Shown piece by piece: positions 26,495 through 52,641 of a stretch of 64,000 nt of DNA (position 1 is its first letter; each line of letters opens with the position of its first letter). This DNA is from an uncultured bacterium (GTDB lineage: Bacteria; Bacteroidota; Rhodothermia; Balneolales; DATFMH01), in contig CAWBCD010000009.1 in NCBI GenBank assembly GCA_963787205.1, positions 67,524-131,523 on the forward strand, in the 5' to 3' direction. The notes beneath the pieces are model-generated. The model did no database searches. It was not told where the DNA came from and saw nothing but the letters and a program-made list of their open reading frames with translations. The position numbers and the translations under genes are program-made.

Positions 26495-26515
26495 CAGTAA
26501 TCAGTTAACAGTAAA
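26495..26515. repeat. Heptamer array CAGTAAT CAGTTAA CAGTAAA
   Basis: Three 7-bp units start 2 nt from the DUF99 start codon. Confidence 0.7.
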
Positions 26516-26527
26516 ACAATTAACACG

Positions 26528-26559
26528 ATGTAGGGGTGATTCGCGAATCACCCCTACAT
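26528..26559. repeat. 32-bp perfect palindrome sharing a 24-bp core with 25879-25902
   Basis: ATGTAGGGGTGATTCG|CGAATCACCCCTACAT. The core AGGGGTGATTCGCGAATCACCCCT is identical in both palindromes. Confidence 0.95.
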
Positions 26560-26720
26560 TCAATTCATAAAGGTAACAAGAAATAAAAACCGGGGAACCA
26601 GCATTCTCAAATTATTGTCCCATTAGACTCACCATTAGTAACTTTACCCTGTTGATCGCTGAAAGTTGACTGCCGATAGCTTTTAACACTTAAACACCCT
26701 CACACCTTAACACTTCCCAA

Positions 26721-27455
26721 ATGAATCTCACAGGAAATACCATTTTAATAACCGGTGGCACCTCCGGTATCGGTTTAGCCTTTACAAAAGAATTCCACAG
26801 GCTCGGAAACCAAATTATTATTTGCGGACGCAGAAAGGATCGGTTGAGTGATATTGGAAAACAGTACCCGGGCATTGTCACTAAGGCGTGTGATGTAAGC
26901 AGTGCAAAAGAAAGAGAAGAATTAGCAAAGTGGGCTGTTACTAATTATGATGATCTGAATGTGTTGATTAACAATGCAGGGATTCAATATGCTTTTGATT
27001 TCCAGAGTGCAGTGGATGCAAACAAACTCTATTCAGAAATTGATATCAATTTCAAGGCTCCCGTTCATCTTGCCTCGCTATTTGTGGGCCATCTGAAAAC
27101 AAAAACGCAATCGGCAATCATCAATATTTCTTCCGGACTGGCGTTCGTTCCCATCGCTTTTATGCCGGTATATTGCGCAACCAAGGCTGGTATCCACTCA
27201 TTTACTCTTTCCTTGCGGCATCAATTAAAAGACACCTCTATAAAAGTTTTTGAGATAGCGCCACCATCCGTTGACACGGAACTTGGTCATGATCGCAGAG
27301 CCGATAAGACACAAACACACGGAGGTATGCCGGTTGAGGAGTTTCTTAGAGAGGCTATGGAAGCTTTGGAAAATGATACCTACGAAGCTTTGATCGGTGG
27401 AGCCAAAAACCTGCACGATCAAAATGAAAAATTATTCGCCGCAATGAATCATTGA
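26721..27455 (+). CDS. Short-chain dehydrogenase/reductase (SDR) family oxidoreductase
   Basis: It has the 'ILITGGTSGIGLA' Rossmann motif, 'NNAG' and the 'YCATKAG' catalytic Y-x-x-x-K. Confidence 0.88.
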   Translation: MNLTGNTILITGGTSGIGLAFTKEFHRLGNQIIICGRRKDRLSDIGKQYPGIVTKACDVSSAKEREELAKWAVTNYDDLNVLINNAGIQYAFDFQSAVDANKLYSEIDINFKAPVHLASLFVGHLKTKTQSAIINISSGLAFVPIAFMPVYCATKAGIHSFTLSLRHQLKDTSIKVFEIAPPSVDTELGHDRRADKTQTHGGMPVEEFLREAMEALENDTYEALIGGAKNLHDQNEKLFAAMNH

Positions 27456-27533
27456 TACTTGACAATTCATAGGTAAAAACATCAGGGATTTGATATTGCC
27501 AGGACATGCAACGACTTTTCTGACCCTGACTTG

Positions 27534-27603
27534 CTGACCGCTGACCGCTGACCGCTGACCGCTGACCGCTGACCGCTGACCGCTGACCGCTGACCGCTGA
27601 CCG
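27534..27603. repeat. (CTGACCG)x10 perfect heptanucleotide tandem repeat
   Basis: I counted ten identical units. They are preceded by degenerate CTGACCCTGACTTG and end 2 nt before the stop codon of the minus-strand OMP gene. Confidence 0.97.
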
Positions 27604-27605
27604 CT

Positions 27606-50105: not shown

Positions 50106-50128
50106 ATTGTCATTAAAAACGTAGGGGA

Positions 50129-51424
50129 TCAGGATTCTTTTAATTGTTGCAGACGCAGTTCAACGGCCTTTTTATGGGCTTCCAGTTGTTCAACTTCTGC
50201 CATCTTCATAACGGTCGGGCCCAGTGTTTTCAGTCCGGACGGAGACAGCTCCTGAACCGTGATTTGTTTGCGGAAGGTATCTGTGGATACCCCGCTATAC
50301 ATGCGGGCATAACCATACGTCGGCAACGTGTGATTGGTACCCGAGGCATAATCGCCGGCGCTCTCAGGAGACCATGGACCCAGGAAAACAGAACCAGCAT
50401 TCATCACATGATCCAAAATACGCTGAGGGTCTTCCGTATTAATGATGAGATGTTCGGGTGCGTATTGATTTGAAAAAGCCACTGCATCGGCTTCGGTTTG
50501 AACTTTGATGGCGTGACTTTTAGACAGGGCTTTTTTTGCCGTATCACGACGTGGCAGAGCTTCGAGTTGAGCGTCAAGTTCTGCCTGCATTCCATGGAGA
50601 TCAAAACCGTCGATGGCTACGAGGATGACTTGGCTGTCCGGCCCATGCTCAGCCTGGGACAAAAGATCAGCGGCGACAAATTTAGGATTCGCCTGCTCGT
50701 CAGCGATGACCAAAACCTCCGAGGGGCCGGCCGGCATATCGATGCTGATCATCGCATCAGAATTCTGCAACAGCATTTTGGCGGCCGTGACATATTGGTT
50801 ACCCGGACCAACGATCTTGTCAACTTTGGGTACTGATTCAGTCCCGTAGGCAAGAGCAGCGATAGCCTGTGCGCCACCGGCTTTGAGAATTACCTTCACT
50901 CCAAGCCGTTCGGCAATATATTTGATTTCCGGAGCGATGTTACCATTTTTGTCCGGTGGCGTTGCAATGACAATTTCGCGACATCCTGCGATTGCAGCCG
51001 GGATGCCAAGCATAAGAGCAGTTGAGGGGAGAATGGCCGATCCGCCGGGTACATATAATCCGACGCGCTCAATCGGTCGTGCCACCCGCCGGCAGAGAAC
51101 GCCCCGTACGGTTTCGACTTCCAGCTCTATTCCAATCTGTGCCTGGTGAAAACGGTAGACGTTAGTCCATGCTGTGTCGAAGGCTTCTTTGACATCTTTG
51201 CTGAGCTTGCGGGCGTTATTCGTACCCGGATTCTCAGTTGGTTTTTCCAGATCAGTCCCATCGAATTTTTTTGTGTATTCCAGAAGAGCCTCATCACCGC
51301 GTTGACGAACTTGATCGAGAATCTCCTGTACTCGTTCATAGATGTCCGTGCTGTTAATTCGCGGCCTTGCGCAGAGATCTGCCCGCTGCTCTTCACTTAA
51401 ATTTGAATAGACATTTACATCCAT
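50129..51424 (-). CDS. hisD: Histidinol dehydrogenase
   Basis: It has '[17 protein letters not shown]', '[13 protein letters not shown]', '[14 protein letters not shown]', '[11 protein letters not shown]' and 'YAPEHL'. Confidence 0.95.
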
Positions 51425-51434
51425 GATCTCATCC

Positions 51435-52304
51435 TTAAAGAATCATATTCTGAATAGGCAACATGACGATACCGGTAGCTCCGGCTTCTTTCAGTTTTTC
51501 CATGACTACCCAGAATTCCCTGATGGAGATGACAGAATGGATGGCGATCATATCCGGGTTGGCGAGCGGTAAGACAGTCGGGCTGTTCAACGATGGAATG
51601 ATATGTGAGATTTTTTCCAGAGATGACCGCGGTGCATTCATCATGATATACCGGCTCTCATCTGCTGTCTGCTGACCACGAATGCGTACCAGAAACTTAT
51701 CGATGAGATCTTGTTTATCCTGGCTGATGGGTTTGCTGGTTTGAATGAGTTGGGTCTGCGACTCCAGAATGGTATCCAGCTCAATCAAACCGTTTGCCTT
51801 GAGTGTACTTCCGGTTGATACCAGGTCGCAAATAGCATCAGCTACATCCAGAGCAGGCGTTATTTCGACCGCACCTGAAATAGTGATGATATCTACGTCG
51901 ATTCCCTGGGACTCGAAGAAACGTTGTGTCAGCCGGGGATAACTGGTGGCTACTCGTTTTCCCTGGAAATCCTCAACCTTTCGAATATCAGAACTTTTTG
52001 GAGCGGCCAGCGAGAGGTGGCAATGTCCATAGTTGAGATCGAGCAAGACCTGGACGTCGGCATCTCGTTCAGCAGTGACATTTGCACCGACGAACCCAAT
52101 GTCGCAGACACCATCCTGCACATATTCGGGGATGTCGTCATCCCGGATAAGCAGGATCTCAACATCGAAGTTGCGGCTGCGAACCATCAGGCGGTTTTTA
52201 TAGCCGTCAAATTCAAGGCCGATGTTTTTCAGCAGGGTTACCGTTTCGTCGGTCAGACGTCCATTTTTCTGTATGCCAATGCGTAATGATGTACTGGTTT
52301 CCAC
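51435..52304 (-). CDS. hisG: ATP phosphoribosyltransferase, long form (GTG start)
   Basis: It has '[11 protein letters not shown]', '[22 protein letters not shown]', '[14 protein letters not shown]' and a C-terminal regulatory domain. Confidence 0.93.
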
Positions 52305-52439
52305 GGGTACTAATCTTTTTTTGAGTTATAAATAATTGGATTTTCTAAACAATAAACAAGCATAATGCATGAATGGTGTTAACAGTTGTGTCGTTCGGAA
52401 AAGCTCGCTGATGGGTAGGGAGGTCACGCTGACCAGGAT

Positions 52440-52487
52440 TCAGTGAGCCGAATGGTGATGATGATGCGAATGGCAATGTCGATGCAA
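52440..52487 (-). promoter_or_regulatory. Candidate his leader peptide (minimal form TTG-HRHCHSHHHHHSAH-stop; in-frame GTG at 52556 would give 38 aa)
   Basis: My own translation of the minus strand: TTG CAT CGA CAT TGC CAT TCG CAT CAT CAT CAC CAT TCG GCT CAC TGA. Nine of 14 sense codons after the start are His. It ends 135 nt upstream of hisG. Confidence 0.5.
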
Positions 52488-52611
52488 GGCAATGAGGATA
52501 TGGGAGCTTTCCAGTGCCCTGTCAAATATGCTTGATATGTCCGTTGTTTCTATCACGACAGCGAAGTTACTGAAACATCATTAAAGATGCATGAGTTAAC
52601 GATAATTTTAT

Positions 52612-52641
52612 AGTAGTGGAAGTAGTGAGTAGTGAGTAGTG
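52612..52641. repeat. Heptamer array AGTAGTG (ga) AGTAGTG AGTAGTG AGTAGTG
   Basis: There are four units, one offset by 2 nt, followed by TTGCAAG-TTTGCAAG-TTGTGAC. It lies in the divergent region between the his leader and the aldo/keto reductase gene. Confidence 0.85.

What the first reader, a model, noticed from the sequence alone, without database searches (positions are those of the whole stretch)
26495..52641. Family of 7-bp-period tandem arrays placed against ORF boundaries at six or more loci
Seen in the sequence:
- 26495-26515 is CAGTAAT/CAGTTAA/CAGTAAA, 2 nt from the DUF99 start.
- 27534-27603 is (CTGACCG)x10, 2 nt from the OMP gene stop.
- 32163-32202 is CAGTTAA-type, 1 nt from the permease start.
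- 32633-32667 is the inverted unit, lying over two stop codons.
- 39744-39778 is a degenerate ATCAGCT ATCGGTA ATTATAA TCAGTGA TCAGTTG, starting 4 nt after the ppc stop.
- 52612-52641 is AGTAGTG x4, in the divergent hisG-leader/AKR region.

After choosing strand and rotation, the three clean units align as CAGTTAA / CGGTCAG / TAGTGAG, giving YRGTNAR. The caveat is that 14 strand/rotation choices per unit make a partial consensus easy to obtain by chance.

Established knowledge: heptanucleotide tandem repeats (STRR) are a known genome feature of heterocystous cyanobacteria. I am not aware of an equivalent description for FCB-group bacteria.

Inference: this is a lineage-specific repeat system, generated by slippage or an unknown enzyme. 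It may affect mRNA ends, translation-initiation context or transcription termination, and the arrays should vary in length between strains.
Basis: partly seen in the sequence, partly recalled or inferred. Interest (0 to 1): 0.55.

Follow-up and report, generated by a model that had tools for sequence, protein, structure and literature searches.

The report
Heptamer-repeat arms around a four-helix-bundle gene
The 7-base repeat arrays are real, and two of them are the inverted arms of a small selfish-looking cassette carrying a "23S rRNA intervening-sequence protein" gene; this gene-plus-arms pairing recurs across many bacterial phyla and on viral contigs, giving a concrete lead on the long-unexplained heptamer repeats of bacterial intergenic DNA.

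Summary
The arrays exist and period 7 is specifically over-represented: 3 arrays against 0 for every other period from 4 to 15.

They bracket a PF05635/TIGR02436 four-helix-bundle gene (32275-32643), the protein family encoded inside 23S rRNA intervening sequences.

Among 81 such genes from many phyla:
- 60/81 have a period-7 array upstream, 64/79 downstream and 47/76 on both sides. Control ORFs give 12%, 14% and 2%.
- 73/81 form a terminal stem.
- The units share a core ARTKANN.
- A divergent subfamily has 8-nt arms.

The cassette has entered the same LolA-like/permease junction several times, in both orientations. Most relatives have an empty 3-100 nt spacer there.

The other window arrays are hairpin or solo relatives. 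Copy number changes in steps of 7. The SDR gene sits between two direct arrays, and a 93%-identical relative lacks it, with the junction inside an array.

Heptamer repeats are already described in Bacteroidetes (MacGregor 2015) and in the Coxiella IVS stem (Warrier 2016), so the repeats themselves are known. I found no description of the cross-phylum gene-array association. CTGACCG does not fit the unit consensus.

The parts
32162..32202 (+). 5' arm of the cassette: CAGTTAA-type heptamers x5.6. On the minus strand it reads (TTAACTG)n and ends 2 nt before the permease ATG.
   Evidence: TRF; sequence; inverted-repeat pairs I1-I4; arm length differs by multiples of 7 in orthologues.
32203..32274 (+). 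Internal leader between the 5' arm and the ORF. It is conserved in the four orthologous cassettes and is presumably the cassette's own promoter or 5' UTR (inferred).
   Evidence: Alignment A2: long runs of invariant columns.
32275..32643 (+). Four-helix-bundle protein gene (23S rRNA intervening-sequence protein / S23p family). It is antisense to the surrounding LolA-like/permease operon. Its TAA stop lies inside the 3' arm.
   Evidence: PF05635 E 1e-25; TIGR02436 E 3e-28; PDB 2RLD E 5e-40, 5 chains in the entry; 3207 homologues.
32634..32676 (+). 3' arm: TTAACTG-type heptamers complementary to the 5' arm. It overlaps the stop codons of the four-helix-bundle gene and of the LolA-like gene.
   Evidence: 29-nt arms 83% complementary, 13 nt perfect. 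The MFE fold pairs the two arms around the ORF. 14-nt indel in L081.
26492..26525 (-). Solo array. On the minus strand it reads TTTACTG TTAACTG ATTACTG TT immediately before the Endo_dU (DUF99) ATG, the 'forward, next to start codon' arrangement of TAACTGA repeats.
   Evidence: Conserved at the same place in L164 and L166. Arrangement described by MacGregor 2015.
26527..26560 (.). Palindromic hairpin with core GGGGTGATTCGCGAATCACCCC, directly next to the 26492 array.
   Evidence: Fold z = -6.8; 2 copies in the window, 0 expected; compensatory G/C swap in L164.
26652..26679 (+). Degenerate array TTGATCG CTGAAAG TTGACTG CCGATAG. It is the direct-orientation partner of the (CTGACCG)12 array on the other side of the SDR gene.
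   Evidence: Sequence. Homologous to arrays in L164 and L166. In L164 the OMP stop codon joins directly to this array and the SDR gene is absent.
26683..26713 (+). Period 7-8 array (TTAACAC-type) ending a few nt before the SDR ATG.
   Evidence: TRF (period 8, 3.9 copies); also present in L166.
27520..27605 (+). (CTGACCG)12.3 solo array that ends at the OMP stop codon. It is a lineage-specific expansion whose unit does not fit the ARTKANN family.
   Evidence: TRF; about 2 related units at this position in L166 and none in L164 or L168; unit score; no self-structure.
25843..25925 (.). ORF-less hairpin between convergent genes. Its heptamer arms (ATTAGAA ATTCGAA AATAGAA ATTAGGA / CCTAATT...) surround a 26-bp perfect stem that contains the same 22-nt palindrome.
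   Evidence: TRF; fold dG -52 kcal/mol, z = -11; arms conserved in L164 and L166; unit fits the family profile, top 2.2%.
39744..39814 (+). Degenerate heptamers (..TCAGTGA TCAGTTG) after the ppc stop, with a short inverted partner AACTGATAAGA. A weak hairpin.
   Evidence: Sequence; fold z = -1.6, so only weak support; not reported by TRF.
52612..52665 (+). (AGTAGTG)x3.3 preceded by one imperfect copy and followed by TTGCAAGT x2. It has no inverted partner and is not near an ORF end.
   Evidence: TRF; sequence; no structure. The same unit forms a small hairpin in the LolA-like/permease spacer of L111.

Best explanation
SHOWN. Positions 32162-32676 are one element. A four-helix-bundle (PF05635/TIGR02436, 'S23p') gene is enclosed by two inverted arrays of heptamers that can pair into a long stem. 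This is the architecture of the ORF-containing intervening sequences (IVS) of 23S rRNA. Here it sits, antisense, in the spacer of a LolA-like/permease operon of a Balneolales bacterium.

The repeat arms belong to the gene:
- They accompany it in most homologous loci across many phyla and on viral contigs.
- The two arms are reverse complements of each other even though the unit sequence differs between lineages.
- Variant units are mirrored in the two arms.
- A divergent subfamily of the protein carries 8-nt units instead.

The element is gained and lost. Most relatives have an empty 3-100 nt spacer at this junction. Others carry different cassettes there in either orientation, or arrays without an ORF.

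The arrays expand and contract in steps of 7. They also mark breakpoints of gene presence/absence, as for the SDR gene.

INFERRED.
- In a transcript from either strand the arms fold into a near-perfect duplex that RNase III cuts. This was demonstrated for the Coxiella IVS, where the cut falls at the first heptamer. The cut would release the ORF-containing loop from the host transcript.
- The other arrays in the window are ORF-less hairpins, or single arms and expansions of the same repeat system.
- An inverted repeat reads the same on both strands. A gene downstream of such an element therefore always sees the TAAYT-type arm, which carries a TAA in all three frames, just before its start codon. 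A gene upstream sees the ARTTA-type arm just after its stop. This would explain both the placement against ORF ends and the orientation bias reported for TAACTGA repeats.
For: In the window:
- Pfam and NCBIfam assign the ORF.
- The arms are complementary and the MFE fold pairs them around the ORF.

In 80 genome loci from many phyla:
- There are 156 period-7 arrays against 1-9 for each other period from 4 to 12.
- 103 of the 156 lie within 200 nt of the gene, a zone that is 5.6% of the sequence.

Per gene (with controls):
- A period-7 array is present upstream in 60/81, downstream in 64/79 and on both sides in 47/76.
- Periods 5, 6, 8 and 9 give 0-4 each.
- Other ORFs in the same loci give 26/225, 32/225 and 4/225.
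- In 41 of 51 two-sided cases the downstream unit is the reverse complement of the upstream unit (<=1 mismatch).

Stems, units and stop codons:
- 73/81 loci have a terminal stem scoring >=12, against 17% when arms are paired between unrelated loci. Variant units are mirrored, for example in L022, L071 and L051.
- The unit profile is A(.92) A/G T(.94) T/G A(.75) N N. The 5' arms are purine-rich in 45/52.
- The 3' arm starts a median of 4.5 nt after the stop codon. TAA occurs in 70% of 3'-arm units against 35% expected.

Period-8 subfamily: L137, L127, L163 and L115/L118.

Gain and loss: among 80 LolA-selected metagenome loci most spacers are 3-100 nt, 11 carry a PF05635 ORF, and several carry arrays only.

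Size changes and breakpoints: 7n indels between orthologues; the SDR presence/absence junction lies inside an array.

Other lineages: Beggiatoaceae example; viral contigs, 14 of 18 with arrays.

Literature: in the Coxiella 23S IVS, 2-3 strain-variable heptamers (GACAGAT) lie in the stem 5' of the S23p ORF, and RNase III cuts at the first repeat (PMC4990558).
Against: - No transcript or cleavage data exist for this organism.
- Mismatches in the stems show no clear excess of G-U over A-C (62 against 46). There is therefore no strand-specific signature of an RNA structure, and the pairing could equally matter in single-stranded DNA.
- The whole 541-nt region is not more stable than shuffles (z = -1.25). 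Only the terminal stem is.
- About a quarter of homologous genes show no detectable array on a given side.
- In a sample not selected for the gene, only 3 of 24 period-7 arrays lie within 300 nt of a PF05635 ORF. Most arrays are therefore not current cassette arms.
- (CTGACCG)12 does not fit the unit family, and (AGTAGTG)3 fits only marginally (top 7.7%). Neither has an inverted partner.
- A few viral loci have the opposite arm polarity (L183, L184).
- No target-site duplication or mobility enzyme was identified.
Confidence: 0.7

Rival explanations
1. The arrays are ordinary microsatellites. Replication slippage creates and resizes 7-nt arrays wherever selection tolerates them, which is in intergenic DNA. 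They have no function and no link to any gene.
For: Copy number changes in steps of 7 between relatives. The arrays are almost all intergenic. (CTGACCG)12 and (AGTAGTG)3 have no partner, no structure and no conserved core. Mori et al. 2019 report that heptamer repeats are the most abundant tandem repeats in prokaryotic intergenic regions (PMC6344855).
Against: Slippage alone does not explain several results:
- the roughly 30-fold concentration of arrays around one gene family;
- the reverse-complement relation and mirrored variant units of the two arms;
- the shared core ARTKA across phyla;
- the switch to period 8 in one protein subfamily.
Confidence: 0.1
2. [quoted passage not shown]
For: Two window arrays end 2 nt before a start codon in the 'forward' TAACTGN orientation (Endo_dU and the permease). 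The Endo_dU array is conserved at that place in two relatives. In the BOGUAY genome 132 of 170 repeat sets are forward and upstream of a start codon (PMC4679880).
Against: Other window arrays lie at stop codons, between convergent genes or far from any ORF. The orientation bias follows automatically from the hairpin geometry. In L084 a different unit (TAATTAN) occupies the same position before the same permease gene. No regulator has been identified. This reading is not exclusive of the main one.
Confidence: 0.15
3. The arrays are the ends or attachment sites of a DNA-level mobile element. The arms would be terminal inverted repeats recognised by a transposase or recombinase supplied in trans, and solo arrays would be target sites or excision footprints into which gene cassettes such as SDR integrate.
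For: Different cassettes have inserted independently at one junction, in both orientations, while most relatives have an empty site. ORF-less inverted pairs resemble MITEs. The SDR gene is bracketed by direct arrays, and the junction in the SDR-less relative lies in the array. Cassettes occur on viral contigs. A transposon origin has been suggested for the IVS (Burgin 1990 and Ralph & McClelland 1993, as cited in PMC4990558).
Against: No transposase or recombinase lies in or next to the cassettes examined. No fixed element ends or target-site duplication were seen. Arm length is highly variable. The phylogenetic pattern for SDR fits a deletion between direct arrays in the L164 lineage better than an insertion, because the window, L166 and L168 all have the gene.
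Confidence: 0.2

Closest known systems
ORF-containing intervening sequence (IVS) of 23S rRNA (Coxiella burnetii, Leptospira, Xanthomonas, Brucella)
   Same: The protein family is the same (S23p / PF05635). The ORF sits in the loop of a long stem made by terminal inverted repeats. In Coxiella, tandem heptamers lie in the 5' part of the stem, their copy number differs between strains, and RNase III cuts at the first repeat (PMC4990558). The size is also similar: about 430-500 nt in both.
   Different: This element is not in an rRNA gene. The window has no Rfam hit, and none of the 169 loci held when I searched contains any of four conserved 23S sequence motifs. It lies in spacers of protein-coding operons, in either orientation. 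Both arms are multi-copy arrays. RNase III processing has not been tested here.
TAACTGA heptamer direct repeats of Beggiatoaceae, Cyanobacteria and Bacteroidetes (MacGregor 2015), and cyanobacterial STRR sequences
   Same: These are intergenic tandem 7-mers. The unit is nearly identical: the window has TAACTGT/TAACTGA-type units. They are oriented 'forward' and end 1-2 nt before start codons. They show 7-nt indels between strains. The phylogenetic spread is the same, and the closest homologues of the window protein include Thiotrichaceae and Albibeggiatoa proteins.
   Different: That work treats the repeats as solo direct repeats. It reports a single inverted case and does not mention the four-helix-bundle gene. 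Here the arrays are shown to be paired inverted arms of a gene cassette in many genomes, including a Nostocales locus with TCAGTTA/ACTGATA arms (L002) and an Albibeggiatoa locus.
DGR accessory variability determinant (Avd)
   Same: From memory, bAvd is usually placed in this Pfam family (PF05635) and is a small basic four-helix-bundle protein that forms a pentameric barrel. The solved homologue 2RLD has 5 chains in the entry.
   Different: The cassette contains no reverse transcriptase and no template/variable repeat pair. Its neighbours are an FtsX permease gene and a LolA-like gene. I am not aware of heptamer arms being reported for DGRs.
MITEs / REP-type intergenic hairpin elements
   Same: They are short, intergenic and bounded by inverted repeats. 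ORF-less copies exist. Presence or absence varies between relatives.
   Different: The arms are tandem arrays of variable length rather than fixed terminal repeats. No target-site duplication or cognate transposase was seen. The full version carries a conserved non-transposase ORF.

Membership tests
IVS-type S23p element (as in 23S rRNA of Coxiella / Leptospira) | ORF of the PF05635 / S23p four-helix-bundle family | tested here: met
   PF05635 E 1e-25; TIGR02436 E 3e-28; 2RLD E 5e-40.
IVS-type S23p element (as in 23S rRNA of Coxiella / Leptospira) | Terminal inverted repeats that pair into a long stem enclosing the ORF | tested here: met
   29-nt arms 83% complementary; the MFE fold pairs them; 73/81 homologous loci have such a stem, against 17% in the control.
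IVS-type S23p element (as in 23S rRNA of Coxiella / Leptospira) | Tandem heptamers in the stem 5' of the ORF, with variable copy number | tested here: met
   CAGTTAA x5.6; 7n indels among orthologues; compare GACAGAT x2-3 in Coxiella.
IVS-type S23p element (as in 23S rRNA of Coxiella / Leptospira) | Inserted in helix 25 or 45 of a 23S rRNA gene | tested here: not met
   No rRNA or any other Rfam family in the window. The flanking genes are an FtsX permease and a LolA-like protein. None of four conserved 23S sequence motifs occurs in any of the 169 loci held at that point.
IVS-type S23p element (as in 23S rRNA of Coxiella / Leptospira) | Excision from the precursor RNA by RNase III | not testable with these tools
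   Needs RNA end-mapping or an in vitro cleavage assay.
TAACTGA-type / STRR heptamer repeats | Intergenic tandem direct repeats of a 7-nt unit, with period 7 in excess over other periods | tested here: met
   for the window; for related loci.
TAACTGA-type / STRR heptamer repeats | Unit TAACTGA (or STRR1-3) | tested here: inconclusive
   The window units are TAACTGT and TTACTGN, a 6/7 match. One exact TAACTGA occurs in the 26492 array on the minus strand. CTGACCG and AGTAGTG are different units.
TAACTGA-type / STRR heptamer repeats | Forward orientation ending a few nt before a start codon | tested here: met
   Met for the Endo_dU and permease starts, 2 nt away. Not met for the other arrays.
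MITE / non-autonomous transposon | Fixed terminal inverted repeats plus a target-site duplication | tested here: inconclusive
   Inverted arms are present, but their length varies. No duplication is evident. The empty sites available are only about 60% identical at the protein level, too diverged for a base-level comparison.
Diversity-generating retroelement (Avd component) | Adjacent reverse transcriptase and a template/variable repeat pair | tested here: not met
   The cassette holds only the 122-aa ORF. Its neighbours are a permease and a LolA-like protein. The gene tables of related loci show no RT next to the gene.
Phase-variable simple-sequence contingency locus | Repeat inside an ORF or promoter, so that a change in copy number switches expression | not testable with these tools
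   The arrays are outside ORFs apart from the stop-codon overlap. An effect on promoter spacing or the 5' UTR would need expression data.

The most novel reading that the evidence does not exclude
PF05635 four-helix-bundle cassettes are a pan-bacterial, also phage-borne, class of selfish elements. Their protein recognises, or helps to generate, its own 7-nt (in one subfamily 8-nt) repeat arms. These cassettes and their decay products (ORF-less hairpins and single arms) would be the origin of much of the unexplained excess of heptamer tandem repeats in prokaryotic intergenic DNA, including the cyanobacterial STRR and TAACTGA repeats and the ORF-containing rRNA intervening sequences.
Probability: 0.3. 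Interest if true: 0.85.

Novelty: new variant of a known kind. Interest (0 to 1): 0.62.

Why it matters
Tandem heptamers are reported as the most abundant short tandem repeats in prokaryotic intergenic regions, with "no clear clue" to their function (Mori et al. 2019). Cyanobacterial STRRs have been used as strain-typing fingerprints for decades without an explanation. The four-helix-bundle "S23p" family has thousands of members and solved structures but no known function outside DGRs.

Linking the two gives each a testable partner: a protein candidate for the repeats, and a nucleic-acid candidate for the protein. It also recasts the ORF-containing rRNA intervening sequences as one special landing site of a much more widespread cassette.

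In practical terms, these arrays mark places where operons are interrupted, where genes are gained or lost (the SDR gene here), and where short-read assemblies tend to break.

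Tried and rejected
1. Exact-protein look-up of the window's four-helix-bundle protein found nothing. I reached orthologues through homologues at 92-93% identity instead.
2. Rfam gave no family in the window. For the 375-nt non-cassette insert of L084 it gave only chance-level hairpin matches.
3. G-U against A-C mismatch bias was tested as a sign of a strand-specific RNA stem. The result, 62 against 46, is inconclusive.
4. Folding the whole 541-nt cassette gave z = -1.25, so overall stability is not informative. Only the terminal stem is.
5. I looked for a second PF05635 gene or pseudogene next to the solo arrays of the window and found none. Those arrays are therefore not arms of a present-day cassette.
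6. I looked for an inverted partner of (CTGACCG)12 and found none. Its partner is a direct, degenerate array on the other side of the SDR gene.
8. I checked whether any homologous locus lies in a 23S rRNA gene, using four conserved 23S sequence motifs. None does.
9. I tested a strict link between arm period and protein subfamily. It holds in the LolA-selected sample, but the viral relative L191 of the period-8 subfamily has a period-7 array, so the link is only partial.
10. Six full-text literature searches found no paper that describes the gene-array association beyond the single Coxiella case. The library does not include most subscription-journal papers.

Full report
**1. The observation**

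Tandem Repeats Finder reports period-7 arrays at these positions:
- 27520-27605 (CTGACCG x12.3)
- 32164-32202 (CAGTTAA x5.6)
- 32634-32648 (TAACTGT, the inverted unit)
- 52621-52643 (AGTAGTG x3.3)
- 26492-26525 (weak)

The 39744 array is too degenerate to be reported.

Period 7 is specifically enriched. In a scan of periods 4-15, only period 7 gives arrays at score >=12: three, against none for any other period. At a lower threshold period 7 gives five arrays and periods 5, 6, 8 and 9 give 0-2. Four of the five lie outside ORFs in a window that is about 85% coding.

The AGTAGTG array does not.

**2.

The ORF between arrays 3 and 4 (32275-32643, + strand) belongs to the 23S rRNA intervening-sequence protein family:
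- PF05635, E 1e-25
- TIGR02436 "four helix bundle protein", E 3e-28
- closest solved structure 2RLD, five chains in the entry

The two arrays are reverse complements: 29-nt arms are 83% complementary and 13 nt are perfect. The minimum-energy fold pairs them around the ORF. The ORF's TAA stop lies inside the 3' arm.

The cassette is antisense to the LolA-like (32662-33609) and FtsX-permease (30923-32161) genes that flank it.

**3. The pairing of this gene with repeat arms is general**

An alignment of homologues retrieved 80 genome loci. They come from Bacteroidota, Balneolota, Cyanobacteria, Ignavibacteria, Desulfobacterota, Firmicutes, Planctomycetota, Chloroflexota, Myxococcota, Spirochaetota, Paceibacterota and other groups.

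Array counts in these 555 kb:
- 156 period-7 arrays, against 1-9 for each other period.
- 103 of the 156 lie within 200 nt of the gene, a zone that is 5.6% of the sequence.

| Period-7 array within 150 nt | PF05635 genes | Other ORFs in the same loci |
|---|---|---|
| Upstream | 60/81 | 26/225 |
| Downstream | 64/79 | 32/225 |
| Both sides | 47/76 | 4/225 |

Periods 5, 6, 8 and 9 occur next to the PF05635 genes in only 0-4 cases each.

Further properties of the arms:
- In 41 of 51 two-sided cases the downstream unit is the reverse complement of the upstream unit, with at most one mismatch.
- 73/81 loci have a terminal stem of score >=12, against 17% when arms from different loci are paired. 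Variant units are mirrored in the two arms, for example AATTACG AATTAAA AATTACG ... CGTAATT TTTAATT CGTAATT in L022.
- The units differ between lineages (AATTACG, AATTAGG, AGTTAGG, AATGCAA, CAGTTAT and others) but share a core A-R-T-K-A-N-N. The 5' arm is purine-rich in 45/52 cases.
- The 3' arm starts a median of 4.5 nt after the stop codon. It carries a TAA in 70% of units against 35% expected. Because 7 is not a multiple of 3, this places a stop in every reading frame.
- The arrangement also occurs in a Beggiatoaceae genome, between prs and rplY.
- It occurs on IMG/VR viral contigs: 18 loci, 14 of them with period-7 arrays.

**4. A divergent subfamily has 8-nt arms**

In a sample chosen through the LolA-like neighbour rather than through the gene itself, the divergent PF05635 ORFs of L137, L127, L163 and L115/L118 are flanked by inverted arrays of period 8. 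One example is (GGATTGAT)10 ... (CAGTCCAT)n in L137. These proteins share only about 42% identity over 50 residues with the window protein.

The link is not absolute. A viral relative, L191, has a period-7 array.

This argues that the arms co-evolve with the gene rather than being generic slippage products.

**5. Gain, loss and resizing**

- Three metagenomic contigs carry the orthologous cassette at the same site, with proteins 92-93% identical. Their arms differ by 14 and 21 nt.
- Among 80 loci selected through the LolA-like protein, most have a LolA-like/permease spacer of 3-100 nt.
- Eleven of the 80 carry a PF05635 ORF there. These are of different subfamilies. They are in the sense orientation in L085, L090 and L112, whereas the window cassette is antisense.
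- Others carry arrays without an ORF:
  - L084: TAATTAN x4 touching the permease ATG, inside a 375-nt unrelated insert.
  - L088: an inverted pair.
  - L111: an AGTAGTG hairpin.
  - L103: (AGAGTAA)97 followed by (GACTATC)20, filling the whole spacer.
- ORF-less inverted pairs also occur elsewhere in the gene-selected loci.

**6. The remaining window arrays**

Organism. The OMP-like protein (27606-28886) is 93% identical to one in a Balneolales MAG, which identifies the lineage.

The SDR gene. The Balneolales relative (L164) lacks the SDR gene. The SDR gene is therefore bracketed by two direct arrays, and the presence/absence junction lies inside an array. More distant relatives (L166, L168) have the SDR gene, so a deletion between the direct arrays in the L164 lineage is the simplest reading.

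(CTGACCG)12. It corresponds to about two units in L166 and so is a lineage-specific expansion. Its unit does not fit the ARTKANN profile.

The array before the Endo_dU start. On the gene's strand it reads TTTACTG TTAACTG ATTACTG TT-ATG. It is conserved in L164 and L166.

25843-25925. This is an ORF-less hairpin with AATTAGR-type heptamer arms around a 26-bp perfect stem (dG -52 kcal/mol, z = -11). The arms are conserved in relatives.

**7. Relation to what is published**

- MacGregor 2015 (PMC4679880) described TAACTGA heptamer repeats in Beggiatoaceae, 15 Cyanobacteria and 5 Bacteroidetes. Most are forward-oriented and end about 1 nt before start codons, with 7-nt indels between strains and no known mechanism. 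The four-helix-bundle gene is not mentioned.
- Mori et al. 2019 (PMC6344855) state that tandem heptamers are the most abundant intergenic repeats in prokaryotes, with "no clear clue" to function.
- Warrier et al. 2016 (PMC4990558) show that the Coxiella 23S IVS has 2-3 strain-variable GACAGAT heptamers in its 28-bp terminal stem, just 5' of the S23p ORF. RNase III cuts at the first repeat.

The window cassette has this same architecture outside an rRNA gene. In six searches of the library I found no paper that generalises the association.

From memory, and not checked here, STRR heptamers also extend a helix of the RNase P RNA gene in heterocystous cyanobacteria (Vioque 1997). That would be a second case of such repeats forming a tolerated stem in a structural RNA.

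**8. Mechanism**

Shown:
- The arms belong to the gene.
- They are complementary.
- They resize in steps of 7.
- The cassette comes and goes at operon junctions.
- Arrays coincide with a gene-deletion junction.

Inferred:
- The arms form an RNase III substrate in transcripts from either strand, as in the rRNA IVS.
- An inverted repeat reads identically on both strands. The downstream gene therefore always faces the TAAYT-type arm and the upstream gene the ARTTA-type arm. This accounts for the placement at ORF ends and for the published orientation bias.
- Solo arrays are single arms or independent expansions of the same system.

Open questions:
- Why the unit is 7 nt.
- Whether the conserved core reflects recognition by the pentameric protein, or only the need for a TAA together with complementarity.
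- How the cassette moves.

The G-U against A-C test for an RNA-level constraint was inconclusive (62 against 46).

**9. Verdict**

The repeats themselves are a known kind of feature.

The follow-up shows that part of the family is an IVS-type four-helix-bundle cassette. The cassette-array association holds across phyla and on viral contigs. This appears to be undescribed, and it makes an old question experimentally approachable.

Noticed in passing
window 25880-25901 and 26533-26554: The perfect 22-nt palindrome GGGGTGATTCGCGAATCACCCC occurs twice (0 expected), once on each side of the Endo_dU gene and each time beside heptamers. In L164 the second copy carries a compensatory G/C swap (GTAGCGGTG...CACCGCTAC), which suggests a conserved hairpin.
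   Followed up: partly
window 26721-27455 (SDR gene) versus L164 6174-6350: The SDR gene is absent from the closest relative (OMP 93% identical), and the junction falls inside a heptamer array. The gene is bracketed by direct arrays in the window and in L166.
   Followed up: yes
L084 3772-4145 (also L164 1083-1453): In the closest relative, the LolA-like/permease spacer holds a 375-nt insert instead of the cassette. The insert has no PF05635 ORF. It contains about six small GC-rich hairpins and ends in TAATTAT TAATTAC TAATTGA TAATT-ATG. There is no meaningful Rfam match.
   Followed up: partly
L103 3620-4442: The whole LolA-like/permease spacer (823 nt) consists of (AGAGTAA)x97 followed directly by (GACTATC)x20, with no ORF. 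This is an extreme expansion at the same junction.
   Followed up: partly
L137 3774-4305; L163 3168-3675; L118 3801-4233; L127 690-779: A divergent PF05635 subfamily is flanked by inverted arrays of period 8 rather than 7. The viral locus L175 also has 8-nt arms (AATTTGTA / AATTTACA).
   Followed up: partly
L173-L190 (IMG/VR viral contigs): Four-helix-bundle cassettes with heptamer arms occur on viral contigs. L183 and L184 have the opposite arm polarity (CGTAATT upstream, AATTACG downstream). L179 has at least six successive TCAAAAC arrays downstream.
   Followed up: partly
LolA-like/permease junction across L084-L163: About 14% of relatives carry a PF05635 ORF at this one junction. The ORFs belong to different subfamilies, and orientation differs between these loci (sense) and the window (antisense). 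That seems high for random insertion and suggests a hot spot, or a preference for tight operon junctions.
   Followed up: no
window 52649-52665: TTGCAAGT x2 (period 8) lies directly after the AGTAGTG array in the hisG/aldo-keto-reductase divergent region. No structure is predicted.
   Followed up: no
L170 3001-3351 and L172 1899-2249: In two Thiotrichales/Beggiatoaceae genomes the cassette sits in the sense orientation inside the conserved prs / rplY (L25) / pth gene string, that is, within a ribosomal-protein operon.
   Followed up: partly
window 27606-28886: The 426-aa ORF matches homologues of about 390 aa over only 86-88% of its length. Its true start is probably downstream of the listed GTG. 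Sources name the relatives 'alginate export domain' proteins. Pfam gave no hit.
   Followed up: no
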